Shown in pieces: positions 52,346 to 64,000 of a stretch of DNA of 64,000 nt (position 1 is the stretch's first letter; each line of letters starts with the position of its first letter). The notes beneath the pieces were generated by a model. The model ran no database searches. It was not told where the DNA came from and worked only from the letters and a program-made list of their open reading frames with translations. The stretch lies in NCBI GenBank assembly GCA_036012755.1, contig DASCPX010000071.1, positions 64,001 through 128,000 on the forward strand. The letters run 5' to 3'. The DNA comes from Myxococcota bacterium (GTDB taxonomy: Bacteria > Myxococcota_A > UBA796 > CAJQPC01). The translations under genes and the position numbers were made by a program.

Positions 52346-52740
52346 TCAGCAGCGTCCCAGATGGCGATGAAGCCTCAGCCCGAAGCCGTCCAACCGGCGG
52401 GTGTCCAGGGGCGATCCGTCCCCGTAGAGGAACAACAGGGGGATCTCCACTTCGTGCCGAAGCATGCTCTCGGCGACCAGGGCGGGCCCGCAGCCCCAGG
52501 GGCTGATGACCACGACGCCGTTGTGGACGCGGCCAACGGGCAGGCCCAGCAAGCCGGGGAGCCGCTCCTCTGCGAGGTACTCCGACAGGAGCCCCAGGGG
52601 CTCCACCAACACCCTCAGGCCGCGATCGTTGAGTCTCCGGACCAGCGAGTCGCTGGCGAAGTCGTCGACCCGCAAGTAGACGTCGCCCGACAGCAGCACG
52701 ACCCGCAGATCGGACCGGGGCGCCTCCGCAGCCAGCTCGG
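52346..52740 (-). pseudogene. C-terminal remnant of a CoA-substrate activase / 2-hydroxyacyl-CoA dehydratase-like protein
   Basis: VLLSGDVYLRVDDFAS...GLRVLVEP...GVVVISPWGCGP...PLLFLYGDG...RRLDGF; no own start; internally shortened. Confidence 0.6.
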
Positions 52741-52819
52741 CCACCTCGAAGGGACCGCCCGTCGAGGTCTCGGGCTCGATCTCATCCGCTTCGCTGAGGG
52801 CTGGGGCGCTGTCGTCGTC

Positions 52820-53471
52820 CCAGCTCACGTCCAGCTTGCGTCGCAGCAGGTGGTCGTCATCTTCCCGAGGCCAGAGCTCACGACCCAGGACCTGCCAGGG
52901 AACCGGCCCGTCAAAGGCCACGACCTCGCTGACGATGCGAGCGGACAGACCGTTGAGGGCCAGCGCAGTGCCTCCCTCCTGGTGGATGTGCGCCGTGTCG
53001 AAGTGGGCCACCACCCGGAGGGGCCGCTGCACAGCGCCGTCGAGTCGGGTGGCGGTGCGTCCCGCAGTGTCCAGCGGCACGGCCACGAGGTTCGCGAGCG
53101 GGGCGGCGAGGGCGGGTCAGGAGACTGCAGACACCTCCGAGCACCTGCCGTGGCAAGCCGTCCCCCTCGATTCCGAGCACGGCCTGAGGCAGCTGCGCCT
53201 CCTCCACCACCAGCTCCAGGCCCTCCGCCAGGGCGATGACCTGGCCGGGCTCGAGCACCACCGAGCTCTTGGCTCTTCCTTGCAGCGCGAATCGCCCCCG
53301 GAGGGCGAGCAGCTTCAGCTCTTGTCCGCGCAGGCTGACCATGGCGTGGGCCTCGGAGATCCGACCATCCAGCAGGGACAAGGCTGCTGACCACAGACGA
53401 CCGATCAGGTCACCGTGTCCCAGCTCGACCGTTCGGCCGTCGGCCAGTGAGAATCTGGCAAAGGCACGCAT
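52820..53471 (-). pseudogene. FHA-domain / winged-helix regulator, frameshifted and 3'-truncated
   Basis: IGRLWSAAL..DGRISEAHA FHA motif; frame change near 53100; second frame ...VPWQVLGRELWP...LRRKLDVS stops mid-wHTH. Confidence 0.6.
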
Positions 53472-53582: not shown

Positions 53583-54419
53583 ATGTGGCTCTTGCTGGCG
53601 CTGTCCTGTGACCTCGAACCGGACCCCCTCCCGACCGAGGAGGCGGCCCGCGACGCGGACGCCGGCATGGAGGAGGCCGCGACACCACCGATGGTGCAGC
53701 TGCTCTACGACTACGCGTTCCTGCCAGATGTCCAGTACCGCCAGCAGCGCGTGCGCATGTTGCTGTGGCTCGTCCACATGGAGCTCTCCGAATACCAGCT
53801 GCGCGTGCTCGCAGAGGCCTGGACCACCGCCGAGACCGAGCGGGGGCGCATCGACGAGGCACAGCGCGAGATCGTCGCCCAGTACGAGCCGGAGCTGGGG
53901 GCGGTCTACGACCAGGTCTGGGAGAGGCTGCGCTCGGGGGCTTCGATCGACGACCCGGAGCTCCTGGCCCTGGCCGAGCCGCTCACAGAGGCCCGAATCC
54001 ACAAGGAGCAGGAGCGGGAGCTCCTGGCCCTGCGCTTCCAGGGCGTCGAGGCCGTCAACGCCGCCCAGAAGGACTTCCTGCGCTCGCTCTCGCCCCAGCA
54101 GGAGGCCAAGGTCGCGGACGCCAGCTTCTTCCTGCGCCACAAGCTGGATCCCTACGCGAACCCCGGGGACTTCAACGCGCTGATCGGGACCGTCTTCACC
54201 CCCGGCGACTACGCGACGCTGAAGCGCGGCTCCTTCGACCCCGAGACCGACCACCTCGACCTCGCAGGCCTGTGGTCCGATCCCGGCGACCCGGATCGCG
54301 AAAAAGGTGTCTTCCCCGACGTGCAGCGCGAGCTCGTGGTCTTCATGATCCTCCAGGAGCCGGCCCTGCCAGAGGCCATCGAGGCAGCGCTCAGCCGCTC
54401 GAGCCCGCCGGCTCCCTGA
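53583..54419 (+). CDS. Hypothetical lipoprotein, mostly helical
   Basis: MWLLLALSC; strong GC3 bias; no recognised domain. Confidence 0.7.
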   Translation: MWLLLALSCDLEPDPLPTEEAARDADAGMEEAATPPMVQLLYDYAFLPDVQYRQQRVRMLLWLVHMELSEYQLRVLAEAWTTAETERGRIDEAQREIVAQYEPELGAVYDQVWERLRSGASIDDPELLALAEPLTEARIHKEQERELLALRFQGVEAVNAAQKDFLRSLSPQQEAKVADASFFLRHKLDPYANPGDFNALIGTVFTPGDYATLKRGSFDPETDHLDLAGLWSDPGDPDREKGVFPDVQRELVVFMILQEPALPEAIEAALSRSSPPAP

Positions 54420-56253
54420 GCCCCGAAGCGAGGATCTCCCGCTGGGCCTGGAGACCGTGGCGGAGTCGCCACAGGTCCTGGAGCCGGGCCTTCTGGACCG
54501 CGACCGCCGCCGAGTGATCGCGCACCCCGGCGTCGATGACCTCGTGGAAGCGGGTGAGCTCCTCGACCAGCTGGCGGCGCAGACGCAGGCGCAGCATCGA
54601 CTCGAGCTGAGGGCGCGCCGCGCGCAGCTGGGCCAGGCCCTCGTCCCGGGCCTCGACCACCGAGTCCTTCAGGCGCACGGCCGCCTTCTTTCGCAAGCTG
54701 TCCAAGGGCGTGATGAGCCGATCCACCGCGAGGAAGGCCCCAGATGCAAGGACCAGGGGCACGACCACAGGCGCGCCGATCAGCAGGCCCAGCCCCAAGG
54801 CGCCAAGGCCCGCGCCGACGCTGAAGGCCGTGCGGGGACCGCGGTCTTCGCCGACGAGCCCCTCGATGCCGACCCGGACCTCGGCCTGGTGCAGGCCCTC
54901 GACGTCCACCATGCCCAGGTCCCCAGCCCGAGCAGCTTCGACAAGCCGATAGCGCTCGACGAGCTCCCCGAGCGCCGCCGTCGCGAGGGTCGACCAGGCC
55001 TCCTCCAGCACCGCCTGGCCTGCGTTCAAGGCCCGCCCGGCGTGGATCTCCAGCGCCGTGGGCATGCTCTGTTCGAGGTCCTCGCCCAGGGCCGTCAGCG
55101 CACGCCTGGAGCCCACCTCTGCGATGCGGTCGTCCCAGCGCCCGTGCCAGCCGCCCAGCTCCCGGAGCCACACGGACTCCATCGCCTCCACAGCCCGGTC
55201 CACCGCCTCGTCAACGTCCACCTCGGCGAGGGTCTCCTCCAGGAAGGCGTCCGGATCCGGGATGCGCTGGGACTCGAGCTGTTCGGCCCGCAGGGAGTAG
55301 CGCGCCTCTGCCTGGTCGCAGGCGGCGTCGACCAGCTCGATGGCCTGCTCGGCAGCCCGCGCCGCCCGCCGCACCAGGATCAGGTCGCGGTCCCTCGCCA
55401 GCCGATCGACCAGCTCTCCCAGGTCCTCCGCGAAGCGACGCGCGAAGTAGGGCCGCGTGCCGTCGAGCACCGACTGGGCGGCCACGGCCCAGGCCACGAC
55501 CTCGTCGGTCCCGAGCCCGACCTGCTCGGCGAAGCGCCGGACCCCCACCCGTCGGGCCTCCTCGACCTCTTCAGCGGGGTCGCCCCCCACATCCTCTGCG
55601 TTGTCCCAGGCGCGATCGACCTTCGTGAGCATCAGGTAGACCTCGGGCACCTGCTGTCGGACCCGCTCCAGGAAGTCCAGGGTGCTGCGGGGCAGCGCCT
55701 GCTGGAGATCCGACAACAGGATGCAGCCGTCCGCCTCCTTCTCGATCGCCGCCCAGGCCCGGGCCTGGTTCTCCTCGTGGTCCGTGTTCACGCCGGGGGT
55801 GTCCAGCAGCACCAGGTCCGCTGGGAGCACCTCGCTCGGCACCCACAGCTCCAGCTCGAGCACGCCGGCGGTCTTCAGATCCGTGAGCGCCGCGACCTCT
55901 TCGAGGCACGCGCCCTCCTCGACGCCTCCTTCTCGAATCGCGCGATAGCGCCTGGGTCCTCGACGGATCCGCGTGACCGTCCCGGTGCACTCCCGGATCG
56001 CCACCCCCAAGATGGCCTCTCCCATCACCGCGTTGAGGAAGGTGCTCTTGCCTGCCTTCTTCTCCCCTACCACCGCGACGACGAGCTCCTCTCGACGGAG
56101 CCGATCCCGCAGCTCCGAGACGAGGTCCTCGATCTCGTCTCCAGCCTCGCCGAAGCTCTCCCGGTGGCGCAACAGCGCCTGCAGCTGCAGGGCAGCAGAG
56201 CCGACTGCGTCGATGAGCTCGATCCGGGTTGCCACGAGACGAAATAAAAGCAC
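54391..56253 (-). CDS. Bacterial dynamin-like GTPase
   Basis: G1 GEKKAGKST, G2 CTG, G3 DTPG, G4 TKVD; helical stalk; hydrophobic paddle GAGLGALGLGLLIGAPVVVPLVLA. The start may be 56235. Confidence 0.88.
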   Translation of the reverse strand: MLLFRLVATRIELIDAVGSAALQLQALLRHRESFGEAGDEIEDLVSELRDRLRREELVVAVVGEKKAGKSTFLNAVMGEAILGVAIRECTGTVTRIRRGPRRYRAIREGGVEEGACLEEVAALTDLKTAGVLELELWVPSEVLPADLVLLDTPGVNTDHEENQARAWAAIEKEADGCILLSDLQQALPRSTLDFLERVRQQVPEVYLMLTKVDRAWDNAEDVGGDPAEEVEEARRVGVRRFAEQVGLGTDEVVAWAVAAQSVLDGTRPYFARRFAEDLGELVDRLARDRDLILVRRAARAAEQAIELVDAACDQAEARYSLRAEQLESQRIPDPDAFLEETLAEVDVDEAVDRAVEAMESVWLRELGGWHGRWDDRIAEVGSRRALTALGEDLEQSMPTALEIHAGRALNAGQAVLEEAWSTLATAALGELVERYRLVEAARAGDLGMVDVEGLHQAEVRVGIEGLVGEDRGPRTAFSVGAGLGALGLGLLIGAPVVVPLVLASGAFLAVDRLITPLDSLRKKAAVRLKDSVVEARDEGLAQLRAARPQLESMLRLRLRRQLVEELTRFHEVIDAGVRDHSAAVAVQKARLQDLWRLRHGLQAQREILASGLREPAGSSG

Positions 56254-56288
56254 GGCCCGCGCGGTATGTTCCGTCTTCGGGAGGTTCT

Positions 56289-57275
56289 GTGGATCCGCTC
56301 ACTGGAAAGGTGGTCAAGGAAGTCGCCGCGAAGGTGGTCAAGGAAGTCGCCGCGAAGGAGCTCGTGGGCGAAGGCTTGAAGACCGCGACCCTGGCCGAAG
56401 CCGCCGAGCTTCCGGCGCTCGCCGAGGTCAGCGAGGCCGCCGGCTGGCCGATGGAAGGCCTGCGCAAGGCCGCCGACGCCACCGCCGCCGCCTTCGACGG
56501 CCTCGACGCGGTGCTGGGCATCCCGGAGATCGCCGAGGAGCACCTCGAGGAGCGCGAGCTCATGTCCACCGTCGGGGCCCCGCTGCGGGTCGGGCGGGTC
56601 GGCGAGCGGCTGGCAGCCAAGGCAACCGTCGAGCAGCTCGGCGGCTTCTGGGACGACATCTTCGGCCCGGACCTGTCGACCTGCGAGGTCTACGTCCACG
56701 ACTGGGGCCCCGAGCAGTTCAACGGGATCGGCGACCCCCTCGACGCCGGCGAATGCTGGCGGAAGCAGAACGGGCCAGCCTCCTGCGCGGTGGTGAGCCA
56801 GGTCGGCATCATCGAGTACATGACCGGCGAGTGCCTCAGCGAGGACGCAGCCTGCCGCATCGCAGAGGACATGGGCTGGTTCGATCCCCACGGCGGCACG
56901 ATGCCCGAGCACTGCGACAAGCTGCTCGAGTACCACGGCATCGACACCGACAAGCACTACAACAGCGACATCATGGAGATCGTCGAGGCGCTCGAAAACG
57001 GCGACCAGGTCCTCGTCGGGCTCAACGCCAACTACCTCTGGTACCCCATGCGCGACCCGGTCACCGGAGGGGTCGCGGTGCAGCCCGGAGGCGCAGGCCA
57101 CGCGGTCTGGATCACCGGTGTCGACATGGACCCCCACGGCAACGTCACGGTGCTCATGAACGACAGCGGGCACGGCGCTGGTCGCTGCCAGGCGGTCTCC
57201 CTCGCCGACTTCGAGGCCGGCTGGGAGGAGTTCTCCAACTTCGTCGTGATCGCCAAGAACCCACAGGTGGCCTGA
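56289..57275 (+). CDS. Peptidase C39-like (papain-fold) protein with an Ala/Glu-rich N-terminus
   Basis: GGAGG SD plus GTG; QNGPASC (Gln/Cys), GHAVWITG (His), MNDSG (Asp). Confidence 0.75.
   Translation: MDPLTGKVVKEVAAKVVKEVAAKELVGEGLKTATLAEAAELPALAEVSEAAGWPMEGLRKAADATAAAFDGLDAVLGIPEIAEEHLEERELMSTVGAPLRVGRVGERLAAKATVEQLGGFWDDIFGPDLSTCEVYVHDWGPEQFNGIGDPLDAGECWRKQNGPASCAVVSQVGIIEYMTGECLSEDAACRIAEDMGWFDPHGGTMPEHCDKLLEYHGIDTDKHYNSDIMEIVEALENGDQVLVGLNANYLWYPMRDPVTGGVAVQPGGAGHAVWITGVDMDPHGNVTVLMNDSGHGAGRCQAVSLADFEAGWEEFSNFVVIAKNPQVA
56307..56358 (+). repeat. Perfect 24-bp in-frame tandem duplication
   Basis: AAGGTGGTCAAGGAAGTCGCCGCG x2 plus AAGG, encoding KVVKEVAA twice. Confidence 0.92.
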
Positions 57276-57730
57276 TGGACATGCGTCGACTTCGTGAAGC
57301 CTCCGAGCGAGCCCGTGCCGGGCGACCCACCGCCGGCCCCCTGGCCACCTTCCTGGCCGGACTGCGCGCCCGCCCAGAGCTGGCCGGTGTCATCGGCGTC
57401 GAGTCCGCCGTGATGCTCCCGGTCCCCTCGGCAGATGACGGCTGGAGCCTCGTGAGCGTGGTCGGCCTGCGGCACGGCAAGGATGGCCCCTGGTCGCCCC
57501 CGCGCTTCCGCCTGCGCTGGTCCTGGCCGAATCCGGCCGAGGTCGCCATCGAGCGCCTCGATGCCAGCGGGCCCGTCGATCCACCGACCGGCTCGCCCAG
57601 TGAGCGCGTCCAGCTCCTTTCAGCGCTGGAACGACTGGTCACCACCGACCCGGCATCCGCTCCCGATCTCGGCCCCTTGCTCGAGCGGCTCGAGGCGACC
57701 TGGCCCGCCCAGTGGTGGGAGGCGCGCTAA
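57275..57730 (+). CDS. Hypothetical protein (151 aa)
   Basis: TGATG coupling to the peptidase gene; MDMRRLREASE...LPVP...PPRFRLRWSWP. Confidence 0.65.
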   Translation: MDMRRLREASERARAGRPTAGPLATFLAGLRARPELAGVIGVESAVMLPVPSADDGWSLVSVVGLRHGKDGPWSPPRFRLRWSWPNPAEVAIERLDASGPVDPPTGSPSERVQLLSALERLVTTDPASAPDLGPLLERLEATWPAQWWEAR

Positions 57731-57754
57731 GCTCGCCGACCCACGGAGGGTCCC

Positions 57755-59692
57755 ATGAGCTTCGAGGACTACCTGGCCCTGCGGGCTCGGCTCCTGCACG
57801 CCCTCGACCAGCTGGCGGTCGCCTACACCAAGGCGGGCATCGAGGCCCGCTCGGCGAGCCTGCGCGAGATCCGGACCAGGCTCGAGGACGACACCTTCCG
57901 CCTGATGGTCGTCGGCGAGTTCAAGCGCGGCAAGTCGACCCTGGTCAACGCTCTGCTCGGAGACGCGATCCTGCCCGCCAAGGTCGCCCCCTGCACGGCG
58001 GTGATCACGGAGGTGCGCTTCGGCGAGGAGCCAGAGGCCGTGCTCTTCGGCACCGACGGCTCCAAGCGCGAGGTGCCCTTCGACCGCATCCGCGAGTTCG
58101 TCTGCATCGACGAAGACGACGAGGGGCCCTCCCCCTGGGCGAAGCTGGAGCTCTACTACCCCCTCGAGATCTGCCGTAACAACGTCGAGATCATCGACAG
58201 CCCCGGGCTCAACGAGCACCACACGCGGACCGAGGTGGCCCTGGACTACCTGCCCCGAGCCGACGCGCTGGTGATGGTGTTGTCCTGCGAGATGGCGCTG
58301 TCACAGTCGGAGCTCGGCTTCATCGATGACACGCTGGGAGGCCGAGACCTCTCCAACGTCTTCTTCCTGTGGAACCGCTACGACGCCGTGGCCGACTCGC
58401 CGGACGACCTCGACGACATCAAGCGGCGCTCCCGCCGCATGCTGGAACCCAAGCTCACGGCCAAGAACCGGATCTTCTTCGTCTCGGCCAAGGACGCCCT
58501 CGTCGGTCGACGCCGGGGCTCGCCGGAGCTCGTGGAGCGCTCGCTGATGCCGGTCTTCGAGGAGGTGCTCGAGCAGTTCCTCGCCGGGGAGCGAGGGCGG
58601 GTGAAGGTGCTTGGCCCGCTGCGCTCGGCGGAGAAGGCCGCTCGGGACTGCGCGCTCCAGATCCCGCGCATGGAGGCCCACCTCGCCGCGCCGCTGGAGG
58701 AGCTGGAGAAGAAGCAGGCGGCCCTGTCTCCTCGCATCTCCGAGCTGGAGAAGAAGCGCCTGCGGGTCGGACGCATGCTGGACCGGCGCGAGGCCGAGCT
58801 GGGAGACCTCGTAGACGGGCGGCTGCGGGGCTACATCAACGGGCTGGAGTCCAGGCTGCGCCAGTGCGTCCAGGACGCGCCCTCGTCCTGGTGGGAAGGC
58901 CTCGTCAACAAGAAGAAGGTCCACAAGAAGCACATCGAGGGGCTCTGCGAGTTCCTCGGCAAGGACTTCCGCGCCTGGCAGGACGACGAGCTCACGCCGC
59001 TGATCACGCGCCACGTCGAGGGGACCTACGAGGCCCTCGACGACGAGCTGCGCTTCTTCCTGAAGGACGTCGACGCCATCCGCGCGGATCTCCTGCCCGA
59101 GCTCGAGTTCGACGAAGACGTCGACGAGGCCTCACCGGTGGACCGGGTCCTGTCCACAGCTGGCGTCGCCATCCTCTACGGCATCGCCCCGGGGCTGATG
59201 ATCGAGGGAGCCAGCGGCGGCATCAAGCAGGTCATGGAGGGCCTGGGCTACCAGGTCGCGTCCTTCGTCGGGGTCGTCATCATCGGCACCCTGCTGGGAG
59301 TCACCGCGCCTGTCCTGGCCCCCATCGTGCTCGTGGCCTCGGTCGGCATGGCGGTCCTGCGCGCGCTCTTCAAGACCCGCTCGGCGATGGAGAAGCTCCA
59401 GGACAAGGCCGTCGCCGATGTCATGGTCGCCATCCGCGACTCCATGCCGGTGATCGAGTCAAAGGCCGCCGATCGCATCTCCCTTACCCTCGGCGAGCTG
59501 AGCTCGGCCATCGACAACGGCATGCAGACGATGATCGACGAGGTCCAGGCAGAGGTCGCCACGATCCTCACGGAGAAGCGATCCGGAGAGGCCGCCGTGA
59601 AGAGGGGCCGCCAGCGCCTGCTGGAGGCCCGAGGCATCCTCGGCGAGATCAGCGAGACCCTCGACAGCGTGCGCGCCGCCGTCGACCGCTGA
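57755..59692 (+). CDS. Bacterial dynamin-like GTPase (BDLP/LeoA-like)
   Basis: GEFKRGKSTLVNALLG, PCTAV, DSPG, NRYD; coiled-coil stalk; paddle FVGVVIIGTLLGVTAPVLAPIVLVASVG; GGAGG SD. Confidence 0.92.
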   Translation: MSFEDYLALRARLLHALDQLAVAYTKAGIEARSASLREIRTRLEDDTFRLMVVGEFKRGKSTLVNALLGDAILPAKVAPCTAVITEVRFGEEPEAVLFGTDGSKREVPFDRIREFVCIDEDDEGPSPWAKLELYYPLEICRNNVEIIDSPGLNEHHTRTEVALDYLPRADALVMVLSCEMALSQSELGFIDDTLGGRDLSNVFFLWNRYDAVADSPDDLDDIKRRSRRMLEPKLTAKNRIFFVSAKDALVGRRRGSPELVERSLMPVFEEVLEQFLAGERGRVKVLGPLRSAEKAARDCALQIPRMEAHLAAPLEELEKKQAALSPRISELEKKRLRVGRMLDRREAELGDLVDGRLRGYINGLESRLRQCVQDAPSSWWEGLVNKKKVHKKHIEGLCEFLGKDFRAWQDDELTPLITRHVEGTYEALDDELRFFLKDVDAIRADLLPELEFDEDVDEASPVDRVLSTAGVAILYGIAPGLMIEGASGGIKQVMEGLGYQVASFVGVVIIGTLLGVTAPVLAPIVLVASVGMAVLRALFKTRSAMEKLQDKAVADVMVAIRDSMPVIESKAADRISLTLGELSSAIDNGMQTMIDEVQAEVATILTEKRSGEAAVKRGRQRLLEARGILGEISETLDSVRAAVDR

Positions 59693-62600
59693 TCAGCTCG
59701 GGAGCGCGTCGAGGTAGCCGGAGATGTCGCGACCGGACGCGGCGAGCACGATGGCGCCTGCGCGGAGTGCCACCCACTCCCAGGTGGCGTCGTCTCCGTC
59801 GACGAGGCCCAGGGCCGCGGCCTGGAGCACGAGCGGAGGGCCCTCTGCCGCGACGAAGGGGTCCTGCTCCAGCCTCACCCGCGCGGCGACGACCCTGGCC
59901 GCGGGCTCCAGGGGGAGCTCGCCCGCGAAAGCCCGGAAGCGCGAGCAGGCCTGCTCCCAGCGGCCCGGGCCAGAGGCCGACAGCTCACCCAGCACATCCT
60001 CCCAGCCATCGCCCAGGACCTGCGCTGCGGCCGCAGCCGCTGGCCAGGCGAGGCCACCCTCGGGCCGCGGTGCCCCGGTGCCCGCCGCGACGAGCACCGG
60101 CTCGACCAGCCTCAACACCCGCCCTGCCCGCTGGCCGACGACGCGACCGTGTCGATCCCTGGCCCAGGCGAGGCGCTCCTCCCAGGACCCGAAGCGCTGG
60201 GGGGCTTCGTCCGGGATCAGGAGCTTGCCCAGGGCGAAGTCGACGAGCTCGCCCTCCTGCTCACGCAGCGAAGCCAGCCACGCCCCGTCAGGCGGCGGTC
60301 CTCGACCATCCAACACAAACTGCCAGGTGCGCTCGAGGTCTCCGTAGCGGGGGGCCTCTCGCTTCAGCGGCTCCAGGATCTTCTGCGTCGGGACCGACGC
60401 ATAGGCGCAGGAACGCACCGGACGGGTCATCGCCGGGGTCTTCACGATGGCCTCCCCGACCCCCAACAGGCCCAGGTCGTCCCAGCTGTCCTCGCTCAGG
60501 CCCAGGGTGCGGCCCATCTCGGCGATCTCCTCGCCGTCCTCGAGCCGCATCACTATCTTCGTGTTCGTGTTCTTGATGACCCCGCGAGCCAGCATCGCTG
60601 GACTCTGATCCACCACCATCACGCCGATCCCCAGGCTGCGGCCCTCCTGCAGCAGTCGCACACAGTTTCGCAAGAGTGTACGTCCACCCTGGGCTTCCGC
60701 CGCGGCCCCGCGGCCCTCGTTCTCGCGACCGAGCACGTTGTGGGCCTCTTCGATGACGATCAGCCAGCGGGGTCGAGAGCGGTCTCCCTGCCTGGCAGTC
60801 TGTGATGCACGAATGCGCTCGATCAACAACGACGTGATGAACGCAGGGAGGTTCAGCTCGCTCGCCGGGAGTTCCTCGAACTCGATGATCGTGTCACCAG
60901 GGAAGACCTCGTCGATCGACCGCTCCCCGCCGTGGCTGAAGAGGTCCTGGAAGGTGGCGTCGAGGAAGATCCGCGCCCGCCCTTCGAGGGCCCCGCGGTA
61001 GTTGGCACCTACCTCAGGTCCATAAGAGAGGTCGTCGGCGACCAGCTGCACTCCCCGAGCGAAGTCGAGCACTCCGGGCACCTGCGAGGCTCCCTCGCCG
61101 ATGAACGAGCCGGTCTCGATGTCCCACCCGAAGTCCTGGTAGCAGCGCTCCACGGCCTGACGCATGTAGGGACCGATGAGCGCCTCGGTCGGCAGCAGCT
61201 CGGCGAGACTGTCCGACAACACCGCGATGTGGCGCTTCAGCGAGGTCCCGGGCTCGAAGAAGAGGGGGTTGATCCTCAACGGATTCGTGGTGGCGTCACC
61301 GATGGTGTAGACCCTCGGCGGGCGACCTCGGATGCGGCTGAAGGCCCCGGCATAGGTGCGCTTGGCGGTCTCGAGCACGACCACCCGGAGCTCCGGCCCG
61401 AAGTCTCGGAGGCCCTCGAGGATCTTCAACACCCGGCTGGTCTTTCCGCAGCCCGTGGTGCCAGCGACGAGCACGTGGCGGAAGAGCTCACGCTCCGTGA
61501 TCTCCACGTCGCTGCGGGTGTCGTCCCAGCTGCCGAAGCCGAAGGGGCCGATGCGCACACGCCGCCCCTCCGAGGGTGGCGGCGACGGGTTGCGACCGAG
61601 GAAGACACCGCGCTTCATGCGCAGGCCCGGCAGCTCGGCCTCCGGCAGGAGCAGGAAGCGCGCCGCCCGCTCACAGCTCAGGACCGGGAGCGCCGGATCG
61701 AGCCGGCCCAGGATGGGGGTGTTGCTCCTCAACAGCTCCTCTGTCGCGCCCTCCAGCGGCACGGAGACCAGCGGCCGGTCCTTGGTCTGGGAGCCCGCCA
61801 GGACGCCCTTCACGATGTCGCCGATGAGCGCGGCGTCGGAGCCGTCGGCGAGCACCACCGCCCCGGCTCGGAAGGCCCCTGTTCCGCGGGCCTCGTAGAG
61901 GCTCTTGAGGCTGCGATCGAGGCTGGAGTCGATCAGACCGAGCAGGCTGTCGAGGCGCTCCACCGTGCGGGTCTCTCCGTCGGTGCGGCTCGAGCCCGCC
62001 GTCGAGCTGGAGCTCTGGGTCCTCGTCTCGCTGAGCTGGCCCGGGTTGTCCTCCCACTGTGCCTGGGTCAGGTCACGCCGCCGGTGGCCGCGCCCGAGGT
62101 GCTTCACGAAGCGCCACGCCGTGCGGAGCAGGGGATCCTTCTCCCGCTGGGACTGTGCTGCGGCGAGGGAGTCGCTGGACTGGCTGCTCTCGTTCTCGCC
62201 GGTGGTCACCGAGCGAGCCTCCTGCACAGAGGCCTCCGCGTGGACGGCGTCGCGCAGCGCGGCGAGCCGAGAGAGCTCCGCCGCGAAGTCGTCGTCCGTG
62301 ACCCGGCCCACCACGAACATCAGGCGCAAGCGACGCACGTGGAGGCAGCTCTCGACGACGTCGTTGAGGGACTGGAAGGCCCGGGCGTCCGGCGCGCGGT
62401 CCTTGCGGATGCGCTCGTCGTCGAGGTCCTTTGGGGTCGGCACGCCCGAGACGAAGGCGCCGCGGGTGCCCTCCGGGGACTGGAGCAGCGACCAGCACTC
62501 GGCGGGCCGCAGCAACTGCAGCTGCGAGGAGGGGAAGGCCTGGCGCTGGAGCTGGCCGACGATGCCTCGGAAGCGGGAGCGTCTCGTCTCGAGGGACTCG

Positions 62601-62914
62601 CGCTCGGGCAGCACGCTCTGGTTGAAGCGCAGCATGAGCGTGACCGCGACGCGCGGCGCGACGTGGAGCTCGGGCCGGTCGGTCTCGACGATCCAGACGA
62701 GCTCCTCGCCCGGGCGCAACATCGGCAGCACGTTCTCCCAGTCGTGCACGCGGGGGACGAGGTCATGGTGGCCGAGCAGCTGGACTCGGACGGCGCACGC
62801 GTCGAGCAGGCCGGGGTGGACATCCAGGGGCGCGTGCCCCGGATCGAGCCGCAGCCGCATCCCCGGGACCCCCAGACCGAGTTGGAGGCGGAGCTCGGCG
62901 AGCTCGGGATTCAA
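59693..62914 (-). CDS. Large HerA/FtsK/VirB4-like ATPase (DUF87-type)
   Basis: HVLVAGTTGCGKT, LRINPL, IVIEEAH, EGRSLG...VDQSP, NTNTKIVMRL, LGVGEA; Ser/Thr-rich tract in the N-terminal half. Confidence 0.88.
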   Translation of the reverse strand: MNPELAELRLQLGLGVPGMRLRLDPGHAPLDVHPGLLDACAVRVQLLGHHDLVPRVHDWENVLPMLRPGEELVWIVETDRPELHVAPRVAVTLMLRFNQSVLPERESLETRRSRFRGIVGQLQRQAFPSSQLQLLRPAECWSLLQSPEGTRGAFVSGVPTPKDLDDERIRKDRAPDARAFQSLNDVVESCLHVRRLRLMFVVGRVTDDDFAAELSRLAALRDAVHAEASVQEARSVTTGENESSQSSDSLAAAQSQREKDPLLRTAWRFVKHLGRGHRRRDLTQAQWEDNPGQLSETRTQSSSSTAGSSRTDGETRTVERLDSLLGLIDSSLDRSLKSLYEARGTGAFRAGAVVLADGSDAALIGDIVKGVLAGSQTKDRPLVSVPLEGATEELLRSNTPILGRLDPALPVLSCERAARFLLLPEAELPGLRMKRGVFLGRNPSPPPSEGRRVRIGPFGFGSWDDTRSDVEITERELFRHVLVAGTTGCGKTSRVLKILEGLRDFGPELRVVVLETAKRTYAGAFSRIRGRPPRVYTIGDATTNPLRINPLFFEPGTSLKRHIAVLSDSLAELLPTEALIGPYMRQAVERCYQDFGWDIETGSFIGEGASQVPGVLDFARGVQLVADDLSYGPEVGANYRGALEGRARIFLDATFQDLFSHGGERSIDEVFPGDTIIEFEELPASELNLPAFITSLLIERIRASQTARQGDRSRPRWLIVIEEAHNVLGRENEGRGAAAEAQGGRTLLRNCVRLLQEGRSLGIGVMVVDQSPAMLARGVIKNTNTKIVMRLEDGEEIAEMGRTLGLSEDSWDDLGLLGVGEAIVKTPAMTRPVRSCAYASVPTQKILEPLKREAPRYGDLERTWQFVLDGRGPPPDGAWLASLREQEGELVDFALGKLLIPDEAPQRFGSWEERLAWARDRHGRVVGQRAGRVLRLVEPVLVAAGTGAPRPEGGLAWPAAAAAAQVLGDGWEDVLGELSASGPGRWEQACSRFRAFAGELPLEPAARVVAARVRLEQDPFVAAEGPPLVLQAAALGLVDGDDATWEWVALRAGAIVLAASGRDISGYLDALPS

Positions 62915-63726
62915 GACAGCTCCTTCATCGAGATGCGGACCTCGAGATCAGCGCGAACATCTGCCGGAAGGGCGCTCCCGATGCGTTCCAGCGCGGCGAC
63001 CTCCAGGGCCTCGCGAGAGGGGGCGGAGAGATCGCACAGCACCGATCCGAGCCAGGGGAGGCGAGGACAGTGGACCCCCGCGATCCGCAGCCCGCGAACA
63101 TCCACGGCGACCTCCAGGGGCGGTGGCCCGTCTCGGTCGATGACGGCGAGACGGACCCGGCGCGCTCGCGTCGCAGGCACGACAGCGGCGACGGGCTGGT
63201 CCAGCGCGGCCCCGGCGCGTGTGCGCCAGCCCTCCTCCCAGTCCAGGTGCTCATCGAAGGCCAGGTCCGCCGGCTCCACGACCGTGGCCAGATCAGCGGC
63301 GAAGCGCCTCGCCCTGGCGAGGAGGTCCGCTCGTTCATCGAGTCCGTCCAGCTCCAGCACGACAAGGACTCCCCGCCCGGGGGCGCGCCGGAAGACAGCG
63401 CGGAGCATCTCCCGCTCGCGCCGAGACAGGAGCTGCCTCGCCGTGACGACGCCAACCACCCAGGTCGCCCGCACGAAGGCCCCGGCTCGTGCCTGGACCC
63501 AAGCGCCCGCGTCCCGACCGGGCGGGTCGGGCAGGAGGAGCTCCAGGTGCTCCGGCACGGCGGCGACGATCGAGGAGCGGTCGCGGTGTTCGTCGGCGAC
63601 CACCACGACCAGCGGTGCTGATCCGGGCTCCTCGGTCGCGAGCTGGGACAGCCCCACCGCCAGGGCTCCCTCCTGTGCGGCGGCGAGCGTCCGCAAGGAC
63701 TCCCGGACTTCGACGAGCTCCCTCAT
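62911..63726 (-). CDS. Degenerate dynamin-N-like protein (probable pseudo-GTPase)
   Basis: VVVVADEHRDRSSIVAAV at the G1 position, DPPG at G3, ATWVVGVVTARQLLSRREREML, LELD at G4; stop overlaps the ATPase start. Confidence 0.55.
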   Translation of the reverse strand: MRELVEVRESLRTLAAAQEGALAVGLSQLATEEPGSAPLVVVVADEHRDRSSIVAAVPEHLELLLPDPPGRDAGAWVQARAGAFVRATWVVGVVTARQLLSRREREMLRAVFRRAPGRGVLVVLELDGLDERADLLARARRFAADLATVVEPADLAFDEHLDWEEGWRTRAGAALDQPVAAVVPATRARRVRLAVIDRDGPPPLEVAVDVRGLRIAGVHCPRLPWLGSVLCDLSAPSREALEVAALERIGSALPADVRADLEVRISMKELS

Positions 63727-63735
63727 GCCCCCACC

Positions 63736-64000
63736 CTACGACACCGAGAGCGCCTCCCAGATCCCCACGAGGCGTTCGCGCCGGTTGCCCTCGCGTAGGA
63801 CCTGGGCCAGGGCGTACCCCACGACCAGGCTGCGGCGAACCGGCGAGCCACCGACCAGGCGGAGGTGGCCGACGAGCGCGTCCCGGGTGGCCCGCCTGGA
63901 CCGACGATCGACGCTGGCGCCGCCGAGGTGCCGGCAGATCGCGTCGGGCACGAGCACGACCCGACCGTCGACTCGCTGGGCGAGGTCCACGTCCTCCATG
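63736..64000 (-). CDS. 3' end of a hypothetical protein (runs off the right edge)
   Basis: Open frame to the window end; stop 9 bp before the next gene on the same strand. Confidence 0.55.
   Translation of the reverse strand, partial: MEDVDLAQRVDGRVVLVPDAICRHLGGASVDRRSRRATRDALVGHLRLVGGSPVRRSLVVGYALAQVLREGNRRERLVGIWEALSVS

What the first reader, a model, noticed from the sequence alone, without database searches (positions are those of the whole stretch)
54391..64000. Candidate conflict or membrane-remodelling system: dynamins, C39-like peptidase and HerA-like ATPase
Seen: dynamin A (-), then divergently peptidase-hypothetical-dynamin B (+), abutting with zero gap a convergent unit of unknown, degenerate dynamin-like protein and 1073-aa ATPase that continues past the edge. 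Known: bacterial dynamins often act as pairs and some limit phage (B. subtilis DynA, LeoABC/Eleos); HerA-family ATPases power several anti-phage systems. I know of no described system combining these with a papain-fold peptidase. Inference: a multi-component defence, membrane-repair or secretion system.
Basis: partly seen in the sequence, partly recalled or inferred. Interest (0 to 1): 0.8.

Follow-up and report, generated by a model that had tools for sequence, protein, structure and literature searches.

The report
Dynamin, latched peptidase and HerA cassette
These genes form a rare cassette, conserved across bacterial phyla, in which a cysteine protease and a small protein predicted to plug its active site are wired to membrane-shaping dynamin GTPases and here also to a HerA-type motor; it is probably an undescribed stress- or infection-triggered switch.

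Summary
The locus encodes DynA (-), then divergently a C39-like cysteine peptidase, a 151-aa protein and DynB (+). These abut, stop codon to stop codon (TGATCA), a convergent unit: a glycosyltransferase, a degenerate dynamin-type G-domain protein and a 1073-aa HerA-fold ATPase.

The genes co-occur elsewhere. Of 60 public loci holding relatives of the peptidase, 43 hold the small protein (family "c2", no Pfam, no name), 38 dynamins, 24 Hsp70-like genes and 10 the HerA-like ATPase. c2 is fused to a dynamin's N-terminus in 13 loci. In a same-order genome the pseudo-GTPase, HerA, peptidase, c2 and DynB are collinear on one strand.

A complex prediction places c2's most conserved segment in the peptidase's catalytic cleft (score 0.85; best control 0.25).

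I read this as an NTPase-driven proteolytic switch. A latent peptidase is latched by c2 to membrane dynamins, with HerA (or Hsp70 elsewhere) as a swappable second engine. A defence or membrane-stress role is inferred, not shown.

PADLOC models give only weak hits, none to a whole system, and I found no paper describing the cassette. Earlier reports of this scan noted the dynamin-Hsp70-peptidase cassette on other DNA. The c2 latch and the HerA/pseudo-GTPase variant are new here.

The parts
54391..56253 (-). DynA, a 620-aa bacterial dynamin-like GTPase of the 'upstream' paralogue clade
   Evidence: Dynamin_N E 1.8e-17, 64.3 bits. G1 GEKKAGKS, G3 DTPG, G4 TKVD, and a hydrophobic segment at 484-515 with Kyte-Doolittle score 2.37. 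Tree placement on a long branch, supports not shown.
56289..57275 (+). Cytoplasmic C39-like (papain-fold) cysteine peptidase, 328 aa. The catalytic domain is about residues 145-328; the N-terminal 145 residues are uncharacterised.
   Evidence: GTG start with a GGGAGG ribosome-binding site. Q160, C166, H271 and N291/D292 are invariant in 10 relatives. PF13529 scores 14.5 bits, below the cut-off of 24, for this protein; 8 of 10 family members match at E<=0.1. Atlas features 0.89 and structure TM 0.46-0.55 to C39-like clusters.
57275..57730 (+). c2-family protein (151 aa), the predicted latch or pseudo-substrate of the peptidase. It is homologous to the N-terminal domain of the 'middle' dynamin of related loci.
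   Evidence: TGATG overlap with the peptidase stop. hhalign of A3 against A2: 96.6% probability, E 5.5e-10. AF2 model pLDDT 86.4. No clear fold match. Predicted complex with the peptidase: ipSAE 0.85, best control 0.25, contacts to Q160, C166 and H271. 52 clusters, none with a Pfam family or a name.
57755..59692 (+). DynB, a 645-aa bacterial dynamin-like GTPase of the 'last' paralogue clade
   Evidence: Dynamin_N E 9e-26, 91.3 bits. G1 GEFKRGKS, G3 DSPG, G4 NRYD, hydrophobic segment about 507-527. tblastn E about 1e-90 to the last dynamin of cyanobacterial loci. Tree.
59693..62914 (-). HerA/FtsK-type P-loop ATPase, 1073 aa. Layout: N-terminal alpha/beta domain 1-233, disordered Ser/Thr/Gln-rich linker 234-317, domain 318-470, ATPase core 470-840, helical C-terminal domain 857-1073.
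   Evidence: Walker A GTTGCGKT at 485. E722/E723 invariant. AF2 pLDDT 81.3. Foldseek best match SIR2/HerA 8wld, E 3.7e-14, probability 1.0, then HerA-NurA, HerA-DUF4297 and VirB4/TrwK. Pfam and NCBIfam hits are all below their cut-offs.
62911..63726 (-). 271-aa protein, probably a degenerate, P-loop-less dynamin-type G domain. It is translationally coupled to the ATPase.
   Evidence: Its stop overlaps the TTG start of the ATPase. phmmer against 1.84 billion representatives finds only its own fragment. There is a homologue at the same position in L078 (BLASTP E 1e-9). hhalign to dynamins is in the G3-G4 register, but at 5.2% probability, E 0.0075. Atlas features 0.86-0.88 and structure TM 0.61 to dynamin-family proteins.
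63736..64000 (-). 3' part of a family-2 glycosyltransferase gene (250 aa, running to 64488 on the contig), 9 bp upstream of the 271-aa gene. Whether it belongs to the system is uncertain.
   Evidence: Glycos_transf_2 E 5e-07, 30.3 bits against a cut-off of 23.3. Not seen with the system in any other locus; the L078 contig ends before this position.

Best explanation
The locus is one conserved, horizontally scattered accessory system built as an NTPase-driven proteolytic switch.

Its most constant core is a cytoplasmic papain-fold (C39-like) cysteine peptidase and a small alpha/beta protein, c2. c2's most conserved segment is predicted to lie in the peptidase's catalytic cleft, as a latch, pseudo-substrate or cleavable link. 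c2 in turn belongs physically to a dynamin: in 13 related loci it is fused to a dynamin's N-terminus.

DynA and DynB are intact, membrane-inserting dynamin-like GTPases. I infer that their GTP-dependent assembly or rearrangement on a disturbed membrane (phage attack or envelope damage) moves c2 and frees or activates the peptidase, which then cuts its target or targets.

A second engine is swappable. Most relatives carry Hsp70-like ATPases with GrpE. This lineage, some Clostridia and a Streptomyces carry a HerA-fold ATPase instead; HerA ATPases are typically hexameric. Here that ATPase is coupled to a P-loop-less dynamin-type G domain, which could dock it onto the dynamins' G domains.

Shown: gene content, intact motifs, co-occurrence and fusion across phyla, collinearity in a relative, and a confident predicted complex. 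Inferred: binding in the cell, the trigger, the direction of control, the targets and the biological role (conflict or defence, or membrane-stress signalling).
For: - Co-occurrence in 60 public loci holding relatives of the peptidase: c2 in 43 (plus L061 by hhalign at 92%), dynamins in 38, Hsp70-like in 24, GrpE-like in 11, HerA-like in 10.
- c2 lies directly downstream of the peptidase, on the same strand, in 39 of those 43 loci, and is fused to a dynamin ORF in 13.
- The hosts span Cyanobacteria, Streptomyces, Clostridia, Desulfobacterota, Chloroflexota, Acidobacteria and gammaproteobacterial symbionts.
- The peptidase was not found in 40 of 40 related genomes searched, so it is an accessory gene.
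- The window's 151-aa protein is homologous to standalone c2 and to the dynamin N-domain: hhalign 96.6%, E 5.5e-10.
- Predicted complex: ipSAE 0.85, 0.86 and 0.85 against a best control of 0.25. In the tool's calibration this mark was reached by 116 of 157 solved complexes and 2 of 215 mismatched pairs. My own alignments were used, so these counts hold only roughly. Run agreement was at least 91% and partner pLDDT at least 77. The interface holds Q160, C166 and H271 of the peptidase and residues 41-47 of c2.
- Residues 42-49 are the most conserved 8-residue window of c2.
- L078, from a same-order genome, carries the pseudo-GTPase, HerA, peptidase, c2 (hhalign 80%) and DynB on one strand, followed by an Hsp70 fragment.
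- HerA-like genes are followed directly by dynamin genes in two further genomes of the phylum (L084, L085).
- The HerA fold and its motifs are intact.
- Transcription factors sit in some cassettes: LytTR in 8 loci and a sigma-70 region-4 protein in L034.
- Precedent for C39 peptidases as lethal effectors held by small alpha/beta partner proteins: the StbD-CT/StbI preprint (10.64898/2026.05.07.723447; passages read).
Against: - There is no experiment, no expression data and no known target.
- 14 of 60 loci hold the peptidase relative with none of the partners, so the peptidase family is wider than the cassette.
- Across all of c2, predicted interface residues are not more conserved than the rest (1.47 against 1.71 bits).
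- E43 of c2 is replaced in the Clostridial members.
- The HMMs used for the tallies were built from these same loci, and many loci are close kin, so the counts overstate the number of independent events.
- HerA orthologues in G370 and G316 sit with other partners (750-aa and 440-aa unknowns, an AHH nuclease, a Macro domain) and with no dynamin or peptidase nearby.
- The protein upstream of HerA in Streptomyces L061 is not detectably like the 271-aa protein.
- Flanks of 10 related loci are mixed: some hold restriction, integrase, PIN or Macro genes, others housekeeping genes.
- The link between the pseudo-GTPase and dynamins rests on weak scores (5.2% probability).
- The window lacks the Hsp70/GrpE genes and the transcription factor seen elsewhere.
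Confidence: 0.5

Rival explanations
1. The cassette is a housekeeping-type membrane maintenance or remodelling system, not an immune system. The dynamin pair repairs or reshapes the membrane, as described for B. subtilis DynA or mycobacterial IniA/IniC. The peptidase and c2 only process or regulate the dynamins. HerA or Hsp70 act as assembly or disassembly chaperones.
For: Both dynamins are intact and carry membrane paddles. A published survey noted cyanobacterial dynamin groups with DnaK-domain genes downstream and proposed a membrane-remodelling link (PMC5827413; passages read). Several related loci sit among housekeeping genes. c2 is fused to a dynamin, which fits a dynamin-directed protease.
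Against: The distribution is sporadic: the peptidase was not found in 40 of 40 related genomes searched, and HerA-like genes occur in 10 of 401 genomes of the phylum sample. The engines are swapped in a modular way, and some loci lie next to nucleases, Macro domains, McrBC or restriction genes. These are the habits of accessory conflict systems rather than of core membrane biology.
Confidence: 0.3
2. There are two unrelated units that merely abut. On this view the glycosyltransferase, pseudo-GTPase and HerA operon has nothing to do with the dynamin, peptidase and c2 genes, and the zero-gap convergence is an accident of genome packing.
For: The two units are convergent, so they cannot be co-transcribed. 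HerA orthologues in G370 and G316 have other neighbours. The glycosyltransferase has no conserved link to the system.
Against: In L078 the pseudo-GTPase, HerA, peptidase, c2 and DynB are collinear on one strand, so adjacency survived a rearrangement. HerA-like genes lie beside the peptidase in 10 of 60 public loci from at least two further lineages, Clostridia and Streptomyces. HerA-like genes are followed by dynamin genes in L084 and L085. HerA's partner protein itself looks like a dynamin G domain.
Confidence: 0.12
3. The locus is a peptide or bacteriocin maturation and export system. The C39-like peptidase would remove a double-glycine leader, and the HerA/VirB4-like ATPase and the dynamins would drive release, for example in vesicles.
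For: Canonical C39 domains process leader peptides. VirB4/TrwK secretion ATPases appear among the fold matches of the ATPase. LeoA was linked to toxin release through vesicles (PMC4159319; abstract seen in the listing).
Against: The locus has no ABC transporter and no precursor-peptide gene. The peptidase has no signal peptide or transmembrane segment. There is no PF03412 match. The segment of c2 predicted to lie in the cleft has no Gly-Gly site.
Confidence: 0.03

Closest known systems
Paired bacterial dynamin-like proteins: LeoA/LeoBC (the 'Eleos' anti-phage system), Streptomyces DynA/DynB, mycobacterial IniA/IniC, Nostoc BDLP (names partly recalled; LeoABC from PMC4159319, seen in the listing)
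   Same: Two paralogous, membrane-inserting dynamin-like GTPases are encoded together. The PADLOC LeoA and LeoBC models hit DynB (75.3 bits) and DynA (46.5 bits).
   Different: The hits are weak: the NCBIfam LeoA/HP0731 model scores 15.5 bits against a cut-off of 325. The two dynamins are divergent and separated by two genes. The cassette adds a cysteine peptidase, the c2 protein (fused to a third dynamin in relatives), and a HerA-type ATPase with a pseudo-GTPase. As far as I recall, none of these belongs to the named dynamin systems.
Dynamin-Hsp70-peptidase cassette noted earlier in this scan (e1-6829260, e1-3895769, e1-5263513, e1-2127008), and the cyanobacterial 'chaperone group' dynamins with DnaK genes downstream (PMC5827413)
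   Same: It is the same peptidase family next to dynamin-like GTPases. Among the 60 public peptidase loci, 24 carry Hsp70-like genes and 11 GrpE-like genes.
   Different: The window has no Hsp70 or GrpE. It carries a HerA-fold ATPase and a degenerate G-domain protein instead, and it has lost the middle dynamin while keeping that dynamin's c2 domain as a separate gene. The paper does not mention a peptidase (0 occurrences).
HerA-based anti-phage complexes (SIR2-HerA, HerA-DUF4297) and archaeal HerA-NurA
   Same: These are the best fold matches of the ATPase core: 8wld E 3.7e-14; also 9x1m, 4d2i and 8ziq. Walker motifs are intact, and HerA is paired with a partner protein encoded just upstream.
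   Different: There is no SIR2, DUF4297 or NurA partner. The protein has extra N-terminal (1-233) and C-terminal (857-1073) domains. Sequence models score far below their cut-offs: HerA_antiphage 40.7 bits against 800, DUF87 18.8 against 23.2. The partner here is a pseudo-GTPase.
C39 cysteine-peptidase toxins with small immunity proteins (StbD-CT/StbI, Cpe1; preprint 10.64898/2026.05.07.723447, passages read)
   Same: A C39-type peptidase is encoded with a small partner built of a five-stranded antiparallel sheet plus helices that binds it. This shows that such peptidases can be lethal effectors, there cutting GyrB and ParE.
   Different: Those are delivered inter-bacterial toxins, and StbI binds an exosite that leaves the active site open. 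Here the peptidase is cytoplasmic, stands alone, and its partner is predicted to occupy the cleft. No sequence or fold relation between c2 and StbI was tested.
GTPase-centric conflict systems with Hsp70/GrpE or tubulin (DO-GTPase/GAP1 systems; Kaur et al. 2020, PMC7159879; passages and section 29 read)
   Same: The logic is the same: paired GTPases plus Hsp70/GrpE or other NTPases, with variable effectors, in sporadically distributed operons.
   Different: Those systems use GTPases with N-terminal zinc ribbons, a GAP1 protein and FNIII-repeat proteins. The paper does not contain the word dynamin. No such domains were found here.

Membership tests
Peptidase_C39_2 (PF13529), papain-fold clan CA | Match to the family model above Pfam's gathering score | tested here: not met
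   P0001 scores 14.5 bits, E 0.055, against a cut-off of 24, although the match spans profile positions 7-142 of 143. 8 of 10 family members match at E<=0.1, best 1e-05.
Peptidase_C39_2 (PF13529), papain-fold clan CA | Catalytic Gln...Cys...His...Asn/Asp in this order, all conserved | tested here: met
   Q160, C166, H271, N291 and D292 are invariant in the 10-sequence alignment A1.
Peptidase_C39_2 (PF13529), papain-fold clan CA | Papain-like fold of the catalytic domain | tested here: inconclusive
   I made no model of my own. The Atlas's model (pLDDT 0.65) aligns to C39-like clusters with TM 0.46-0.55 by query. The chain folded with pLDDT 90-92 in the complex runs.
C39 leader-peptide peptidase of ABC exporters (PF03412, PCAT) | Fused or adjacent ABC transporter and a double-glycine substrate | tested here: not met
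   There is no ABC transporter or precursor gene in the locus and no PF03412 match.
Bacterial dynamin-like proteins | Dynamin_N G domain above the cut-off, with G1, G3 and G4 motifs | tested here: met
   DynA 64.3 bits and DynB 91.3 bits against a cut-off of 27. Motifs found in both.
Bacterial dynamin-like proteins | Helical stalk with a hydrophobic membrane paddle | tested here: inconclusive
   Hydrophobic 19-mers score 2.3-2.4 (Kyte-Doolittle) at DynA 484-515 and DynB about 507-527. PF21808 scores only 20.9 bits against 28.3 for DynB and gives no hit for DynA.
Eleos / LeoABC anti-phage dynamins | LeoA-family and LeoBC-family proteins as adjacent genes | tested here: not met
   NF041922 (LeoA/HP0731) scores 15.5 bits against a cut-off of 325. 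PADLOC LeoA scores 75.3 bits and LeoBC 46.5 bits, both weak. The genes are divergent and two genes apart.
HerA/FtsK-type hexameric ATPases | HerA-like fold with Walker A and B motifs | tested here: met
   Foldseek E 3.7e-14, probability 1.0, to HerA chains. Walker A GTTGCGKT. E722/E723 invariant.
HerA/FtsK-type hexameric ATPases | Sequence-model membership (DUF87, HerA_C, NCBIfam HerA equivalogs) | tested here: not met
   DUF87 18.8 bits against 23.2; HerA_C 17.1 against 22. HerA_antiphage 40.7 against 800; CedD 65.6 against 600.
Known HerA defence systems (SIR2-HerA, DUF4297-HerA, MADS mad8) | The cognate partner (SIR2, DUF4297 or the other mad genes) encoded beside HerA | tested here: not met
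   No such family was found in the neighbours by Pfam or PADLOC. The mad8 hit covers only the ATPase core.
Dynamin-Hsp70-peptidase cassette (this scan's earlier notes) | Peptidase plus two dynamins plus an Hsp70-like ATPase (with or without GrpE) | tested here: not met
   The peptidase and two dynamins are present. No Hsp70 or GrpE was found in the window or on the contig up to coordinate 80214. The relative L078 has an Hsp70 fragment after DynB.
c2 family (defined here) | Profile match to standalone c2 proteins and a position directly after the peptidase gene | tested here: met
   hhalign 96.6%, E 5.5e-10. The gene start overlaps the peptidase stop.
DO-GTPase/GAP1 conflict systems (PMC7159879) | GTPase with N-terminal zinc ribbons, a GAP1 protein and an FNIII-repeat protein | tested here: not met
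   Pfam finds none of these domains in the locus proteins. The definition is taken from section 29 of the paper.

The most novel reading that the evidence does not exclude
A new class of bacterial immune or stress switch, in which a dynamin acts as a mechanical sensor. c2, the N-terminal domain of a dynamin or its detached copy, plugs a lethal or signalling cysteine peptidase. Membrane-triggered, GTP-driven dynamin rearrangement pulls the plug. A HerA hexamer, recruited through a pseudo-dynamin G domain, or an Hsp70 with exchangeable binding domains, supplies a second, interchangeable sensing or executing engine. This would be the first protease controlled by a dynamin, and a prokaryotic parallel to dynamin-family immune GTPases such as Mx and GBP.
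Probability: 0.3. Interest if true: 0.85.

Novelty: new variant of a known kind. Interest (0 to 1): 0.72.

Why it matters
Bacterial dynamins are widespread but their jobs are mostly unknown. Only a few have been tied to membrane repair, cell division or phage resistance.

This cassette offers a concrete, testable wiring: a protease whose catalytic cleft is predicted to be occupied by a domain that evolution has repeatedly fused to a dynamin.

If confirmed, it would give dynamins a signalling output (regulated proteolysis). It would define a new protein family (c2) as a protease latch. It would also show that HerA and Hsp70 engines can be exchanged on one chassis, which bears on how defence systems are assembled from modules.

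Culturable hosts of close relatives (Oscillatoria, Anabaena, Streptomyces, Lachnoclostridium) make the experiments feasible.

Tried and rejected
- Expression: no RNA holder is listed for the stretch, so there is nothing to say about expression.
- Viral origin: a scan of viral contigs with the peptidase alignment gave one weak locus, 25% identity over 91 residues.
- Solved relatives of the peptidase by sequence: only chance-level rows.
- Fold of c2:
  - Foldseek against PDB: best E 0.049.
  - VIA-align wide: best Z 4.5; cystatin and stefin rows at Z 3.2-3.5 and NTF2-like rows do not stand above the noise.
  - Viral library: best is one uncharacterised phage protein, TM 0.53, E 0.028.
  - I therefore claim no fold family, and the idea that c2 is a cystatin-like inhibitor stays a lead only.
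- Pseudo-GTPase:
  - phmmer over 1.84 billion representatives found only its own fragment.
  - The profile comparison with dynamins reached only 5.2% probability.
  - The 430-aa protein upstream of HerA in L061 shows no similarity to it or to dynamins.
- My c2 HMM missed the L078 gene; hhalign found it at 80%.
- Defence-island test: Pfam on 72 flanking ORFs of 10 loci gave a mixed picture, which I count as inconclusive.
- DO-GTPase/GAP1 systems (Kaur 2020), Eleos, known HerA systems and PCAT-type C39 exporters were considered and rejected as memberships (see the membership test).
- Taxonomy of the host was not determined. It has high G+C, and the runs that hold its DNA are marine metagenomes.
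- Literature searches that found no description of the cassette. They cover open-access PMC and bioRxiv only. Supplements of Kaur 2020, which list its gene neighbourhoods, were not opened and could bear on this.

Full report
**Anatomy**

The window is high in G+C (about 0.70). I chose reading frames by the G+C of the three codon positions. The window lies on contig C71 of a 6.7-Mb draft genome, and the contig continues 16 kb to the right.

Genes, in window coordinates:
- DynA: 54391-56253 (-).
- Peptidase: 56289-57275 (+). GTG start seven bases behind GGGAGG.
- 151-aa gene: 57275-57730 (+). Its ATG overlaps the peptidase stop as TGATG.
- DynB: 57755-59692 (+).
- 1073-aa ATPase: 59693-62914 (-).
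- 271-aa gene: 62911-63726 (-). Its stop overlaps the ATPase's TTG start.
- Family-2 glycosyltransferase: 63736-64488 (-).

The DynB and ATPase stop codons abut as TGATCA. A 12.8-kb contig of one run spans the whole stretch without a difference, but it may be the source of this DNA. A 220-base contig from a run of another study bridges the junction. The junction is therefore not an assembly artefact.

To the right lie a PEMT-like methyltransferase, a B12/radical-SAM enzyme, a Ser/Thr kinase-AAA-TPR protein and a CotH kinase. To the left lies a 2-oxoacid:ferredoxin oxidoreductase.

**The proteins**

- *Dynamins.* DynA and DynB match Dynamin_N well above the cut-off. Both keep G1, G3 and G4 motifs and a strongly hydrophobic segment in the stalk. 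They are the only strong Dynamin_N matches in the genome.
- *Peptidase.* It has no Pfam hit at E 0.01 and reaches PF13529 only at 14.5 bits. Its ten-member family keeps Q160, C166, H271 and N291/D292 invariant. 8 of the 10 members touch PF13529. The Atlas's features and model point to C39-like clusters. It has no signal peptide or hydrophobic segment, so I take it to be cytoplasmic.
- *ATPase.* It has an intact Walker A and acidic Walker B. A confident model (pLDDT 81.3) has a core that matches HerA of the SIR2-HerA and DUF4297-HerA defence complexes, archaeal HerA, and more distantly VirB4/TrwK. Extra domains lie at 1-233 and 857-1073, and residues 234-317 form a disordered linker.
- *271-aa protein.* It has no relative in 1.84 billion representatives apart from its own fragment. 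A protein at the same place in a relative matches it (E 1e-9). A profile comparison aligns it to the G3-G4 stretch of dynamins in the right register, but at only 5.2% probability. The Atlas's features (0.86-0.88, a lead only) and its model (TM 0.61 by query) both point to dynamin-family G domains. The P-loop position reads VVVVADEHRDRSS. 'Degenerate dynamin-type G domain' is therefore likely but not proven.

**Do the genes belong together?**

The peptidase was not found in 40 of 40 related genomes searched. A scan of one genome for each prokaryote species returned 60 loci with relatives, from Cyanobacteria, Streptomyces, Clostridia, Desulfobacterota, Chloroflexota, Acidobacteria and gammaproteobacterial symbionts.

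I clustered all ORFs of these loci, identified the clusters with Pfam, and re-searched the loci with profiles. Of the 60 loci:

| Partner family | Loci |
|---|---|
| c2, a small protein with no Pfam family | 43 |
| Dynamins | 38 |
| Hsp70-like | 24 |
| GrpE-like | 11 |
| HerA-like ATPase | 10 |
| LytTR regulator | 8 |
| None of c2, dynamin, Hsp70, GrpE or HerA | 14 |

The profiles were built from these same loci and many loci are close kin, so these are descriptive counts, not independent events.

c2 directly follows the peptidase on the same strand in 39 of the 43 loci, and is part of a dynamin ORF in 13.

The window's 151-aa protein aligns with the N-terminal domain of those dynamins. Its profile matches standalone c2 at 96.6% probability.

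A tree of 87 dynamins (FastTree, midpoint root, supports not displayed) shows three paralogue clades in the closest loci. DynB falls in the 'last' clade and DynA, on a long branch, in the 'upstream' clade. The c2-fused 'middle' clade has no member in the window. The window thus looks like a three-dynamin system that kept only the c2 domain of its middle dynamin.

**The HerA unit**

HerA-like genes lie beside the peptidase in nine Clostridial loci and in one Streptomyces locus. That locus, L061, reads peptidase, c2 (hhalign 92%), a 520-aa unknown, two dynamins, a 430-aa unknown, then HerA.

Of 401 genomes sampled from the phylum, 10 (including this one) have a match at E<=1e-20.

In the same-order genome G380 (L078), the 271-aa homologue, HerA, peptidase, c2 (hhalign 80%) and DynB lie on one strand. 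An Hsp70 fragment follows them. Adjacency that survives a change of orientation is my main reason to count the convergent unit as part of the system.

Two further genomes (L084, L085) have a HerA-like gene followed directly by a dynamin gene, with no peptidase.

Against exclusivity, the orthologues in G370 and G316 sit behind two other unknown proteins (750 and 440 aa). Next to them lie an AHH nuclease in one case, and a Macro domain and an IS66 transposase in the other. The glycosyltransferase has no conserved link to the system.

**The latch**

c2 folds confidently (pLDDT 86.4) as two N-terminal helices, a five-stranded sheet and two C-terminal helices. It has no clear structural relative. 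52 clusters of the family were found in the large protein collection, and none carries a Pfam family or a name.

The complex prediction of the peptidase's catalytic domain with c2 scored 0.85, 0.86 and 0.85, against a best control of 0.25. In the tool's calibration this mark was reached by 116 of 157 solved complexes and by 2 of 215 mismatched pairs. My own alignments were used, so those counts hold only roughly. The runs agreed in at least 91% of contacts, and the partner's pLDDT was at least 77.

The interface includes Q160, C166-A167 and H271-A272 of the peptidase. The lowest-error contacts pair c2 residues 42-43 with peptidase residues 167, 204-206, 244 and 271-272. Residues 42-49 are the most conserved eight-residue window of c2. 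Over the whole interface, however, conservation is not higher than elsewhere: 1.47 against 1.71 bits.

I read this as c2 occupying the catalytic cleft. Whether it does so as an inhibitor, a pseudo-substrate or a true cleavage site cannot be told from these data.

**Mechanism proposed**

Shown: the parts, their intact motifs, the fusion of c2 to dynamins, the linkage across phyla, and a confident predicted complex.

Inferred:
1. The peptidase is kept latent on a dynamin through c2.
2. Dynamin assembly or GTP-driven rearrangement at a disturbed membrane shifts c2 and activates the peptidase.
3. The peptidase then cuts a target or targets. These could be cellular proteins, as with the C39 toxins that cut GyrB and ParE and are held by small sheet-plus-helix partners (preprint 10.64898/2026.05.07.723447; passages read). 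They could instead be a regulator, since some cassettes carry LytTR or sigma-factor genes.
4. HerA here, or Hsp70/GrpE elsewhere, is an exchangeable second engine, and the pseudo-G-domain protein may dock HerA onto the dynamins.

I put 0.8 on the claim that the genes form one system, 0.6 on c2 binding the cleft, and about 0.4 on a defence or conflict role.

**Comparison with what is known**

PADLOC's models hit only the dynamins (LeoA 75.3 bits, LeoBC 46.5 bits) and the ATPase core (mad8, HerA). They give nothing for the peptidase, c2, the 271-aa protein or the glycosyltransferase. NCBIfam's LeoA and HerA equivalogs are missed by wide margins.

A survey of cyanobacterial dynamins noted a group with DnaK-domain genes downstream, but no peptidase (PMC5827413). 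The GTPase-centric systems with Hsp70/GrpE of Kaur et al. use other GTPases and partners (PMC7159879).

Six literature searches found no description of a dynamin-peptidase, dynamin-HerA or c2 system. These cover open-access and preprint texts only.

This scan had already reported the dynamin-Hsp70-peptidase cassette on other DNA. I saw those notes after finding the cassette myself, and they agree with it. New here are c2 as the peptidase's most constant partner and predicted latch, its identity with the dynamin N-domain, and the HerA/pseudo-GTPase variant.

**Verdict**

The locus is a real, conserved and undescribed variant of the paired-dynamin systems, with a specific and testable mechanism. 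Its function remains inferred.

Noticed in passing
window 56307-56358: A perfect 24-bp tandem duplication (2.2 copies) in the 5' part of the peptidase gene repeats KVVKEVAA. The 64%-identical homologue P0006 has a single copy.
   Followed up: partly
L001 4500-15792 (window coordinates 64500-75792, beyond the window): Right of the system lie a PEMT-like methyltransferase, two B12-binding radical-SAM enzymes, a Ser/Thr kinase-AAA_16-TPR protein, a MORN-repeat protein and a CotH kinase. This may be a lipid- or peptide-modifying cluster. A similar kinase-AAA-TPR protein lies near the HerA orthologue in L080.
   Followed up: no
L079 385-8525 and L081 6598-16022: Orthologues of the HerA-like ATPase in two other genomes sit in a different conserved set. 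Two unknown proteins of about 750 and 440 aa lie upstream. An AHH nuclease plus DUF7281, or a Macro domain plus an IS66 transposase, lie downstream. This looks like a second, separate system built on the same ATPase.
   Followed up: partly
L083 14-13133: A more distant HerA-like ATPase lies between a zinc-ribbon protein and a vWA protein, an 811-aa unknown and a Tubulin_2 protein. This recalls the tubulin-vWA conflict systems of PMC7159879.
   Followed up: no
L084 612-12191: A HerA-like gene is followed directly by a 930-aa dynamin-family gene, then by an AAA_5 (McrB-like) gene and a McrC gene. This is a HerA-dynamin pair inside a restriction context.
   Followed up: partly
L045 2154-6352: Upstream of the Clostridial HerA-peptidase-c2-LytTR-Hsp70 cassette lie five to six tandem paralogous double-zinc-ribbon proteins. 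Downstream lie vWA and Macro-domain genes.
   Followed up: no
L040 5365-8571 and L050 6333-9653: The Hsp70-like proteins of the cassette carry long right-handed beta-helix (NosD-like) C-terminal regions in a gammaproteobacterial symbiont and in a Desulfobacteraceae genome. This fits the 'swappable binding domain' of earlier notes.
   Followed up: no
model m9b7d74022898 against the viral library: The best viral structural match of c2 is one uncharacterised 158-aa siphovirus protein: A0A8S5LSF7, TM 0.53/0.51, probability 0.99, E 0.028. It could be a phage copy or mimic of the latch.
   Followed up: no
window 52346-53086(-) and 53583-54419(+): Two ORFs with good coding signal left of DynA have no Pfam, NCBIfam or PADLOC match. 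The second overlaps the DynA 3' end by 29 bp.
   Followed up: no
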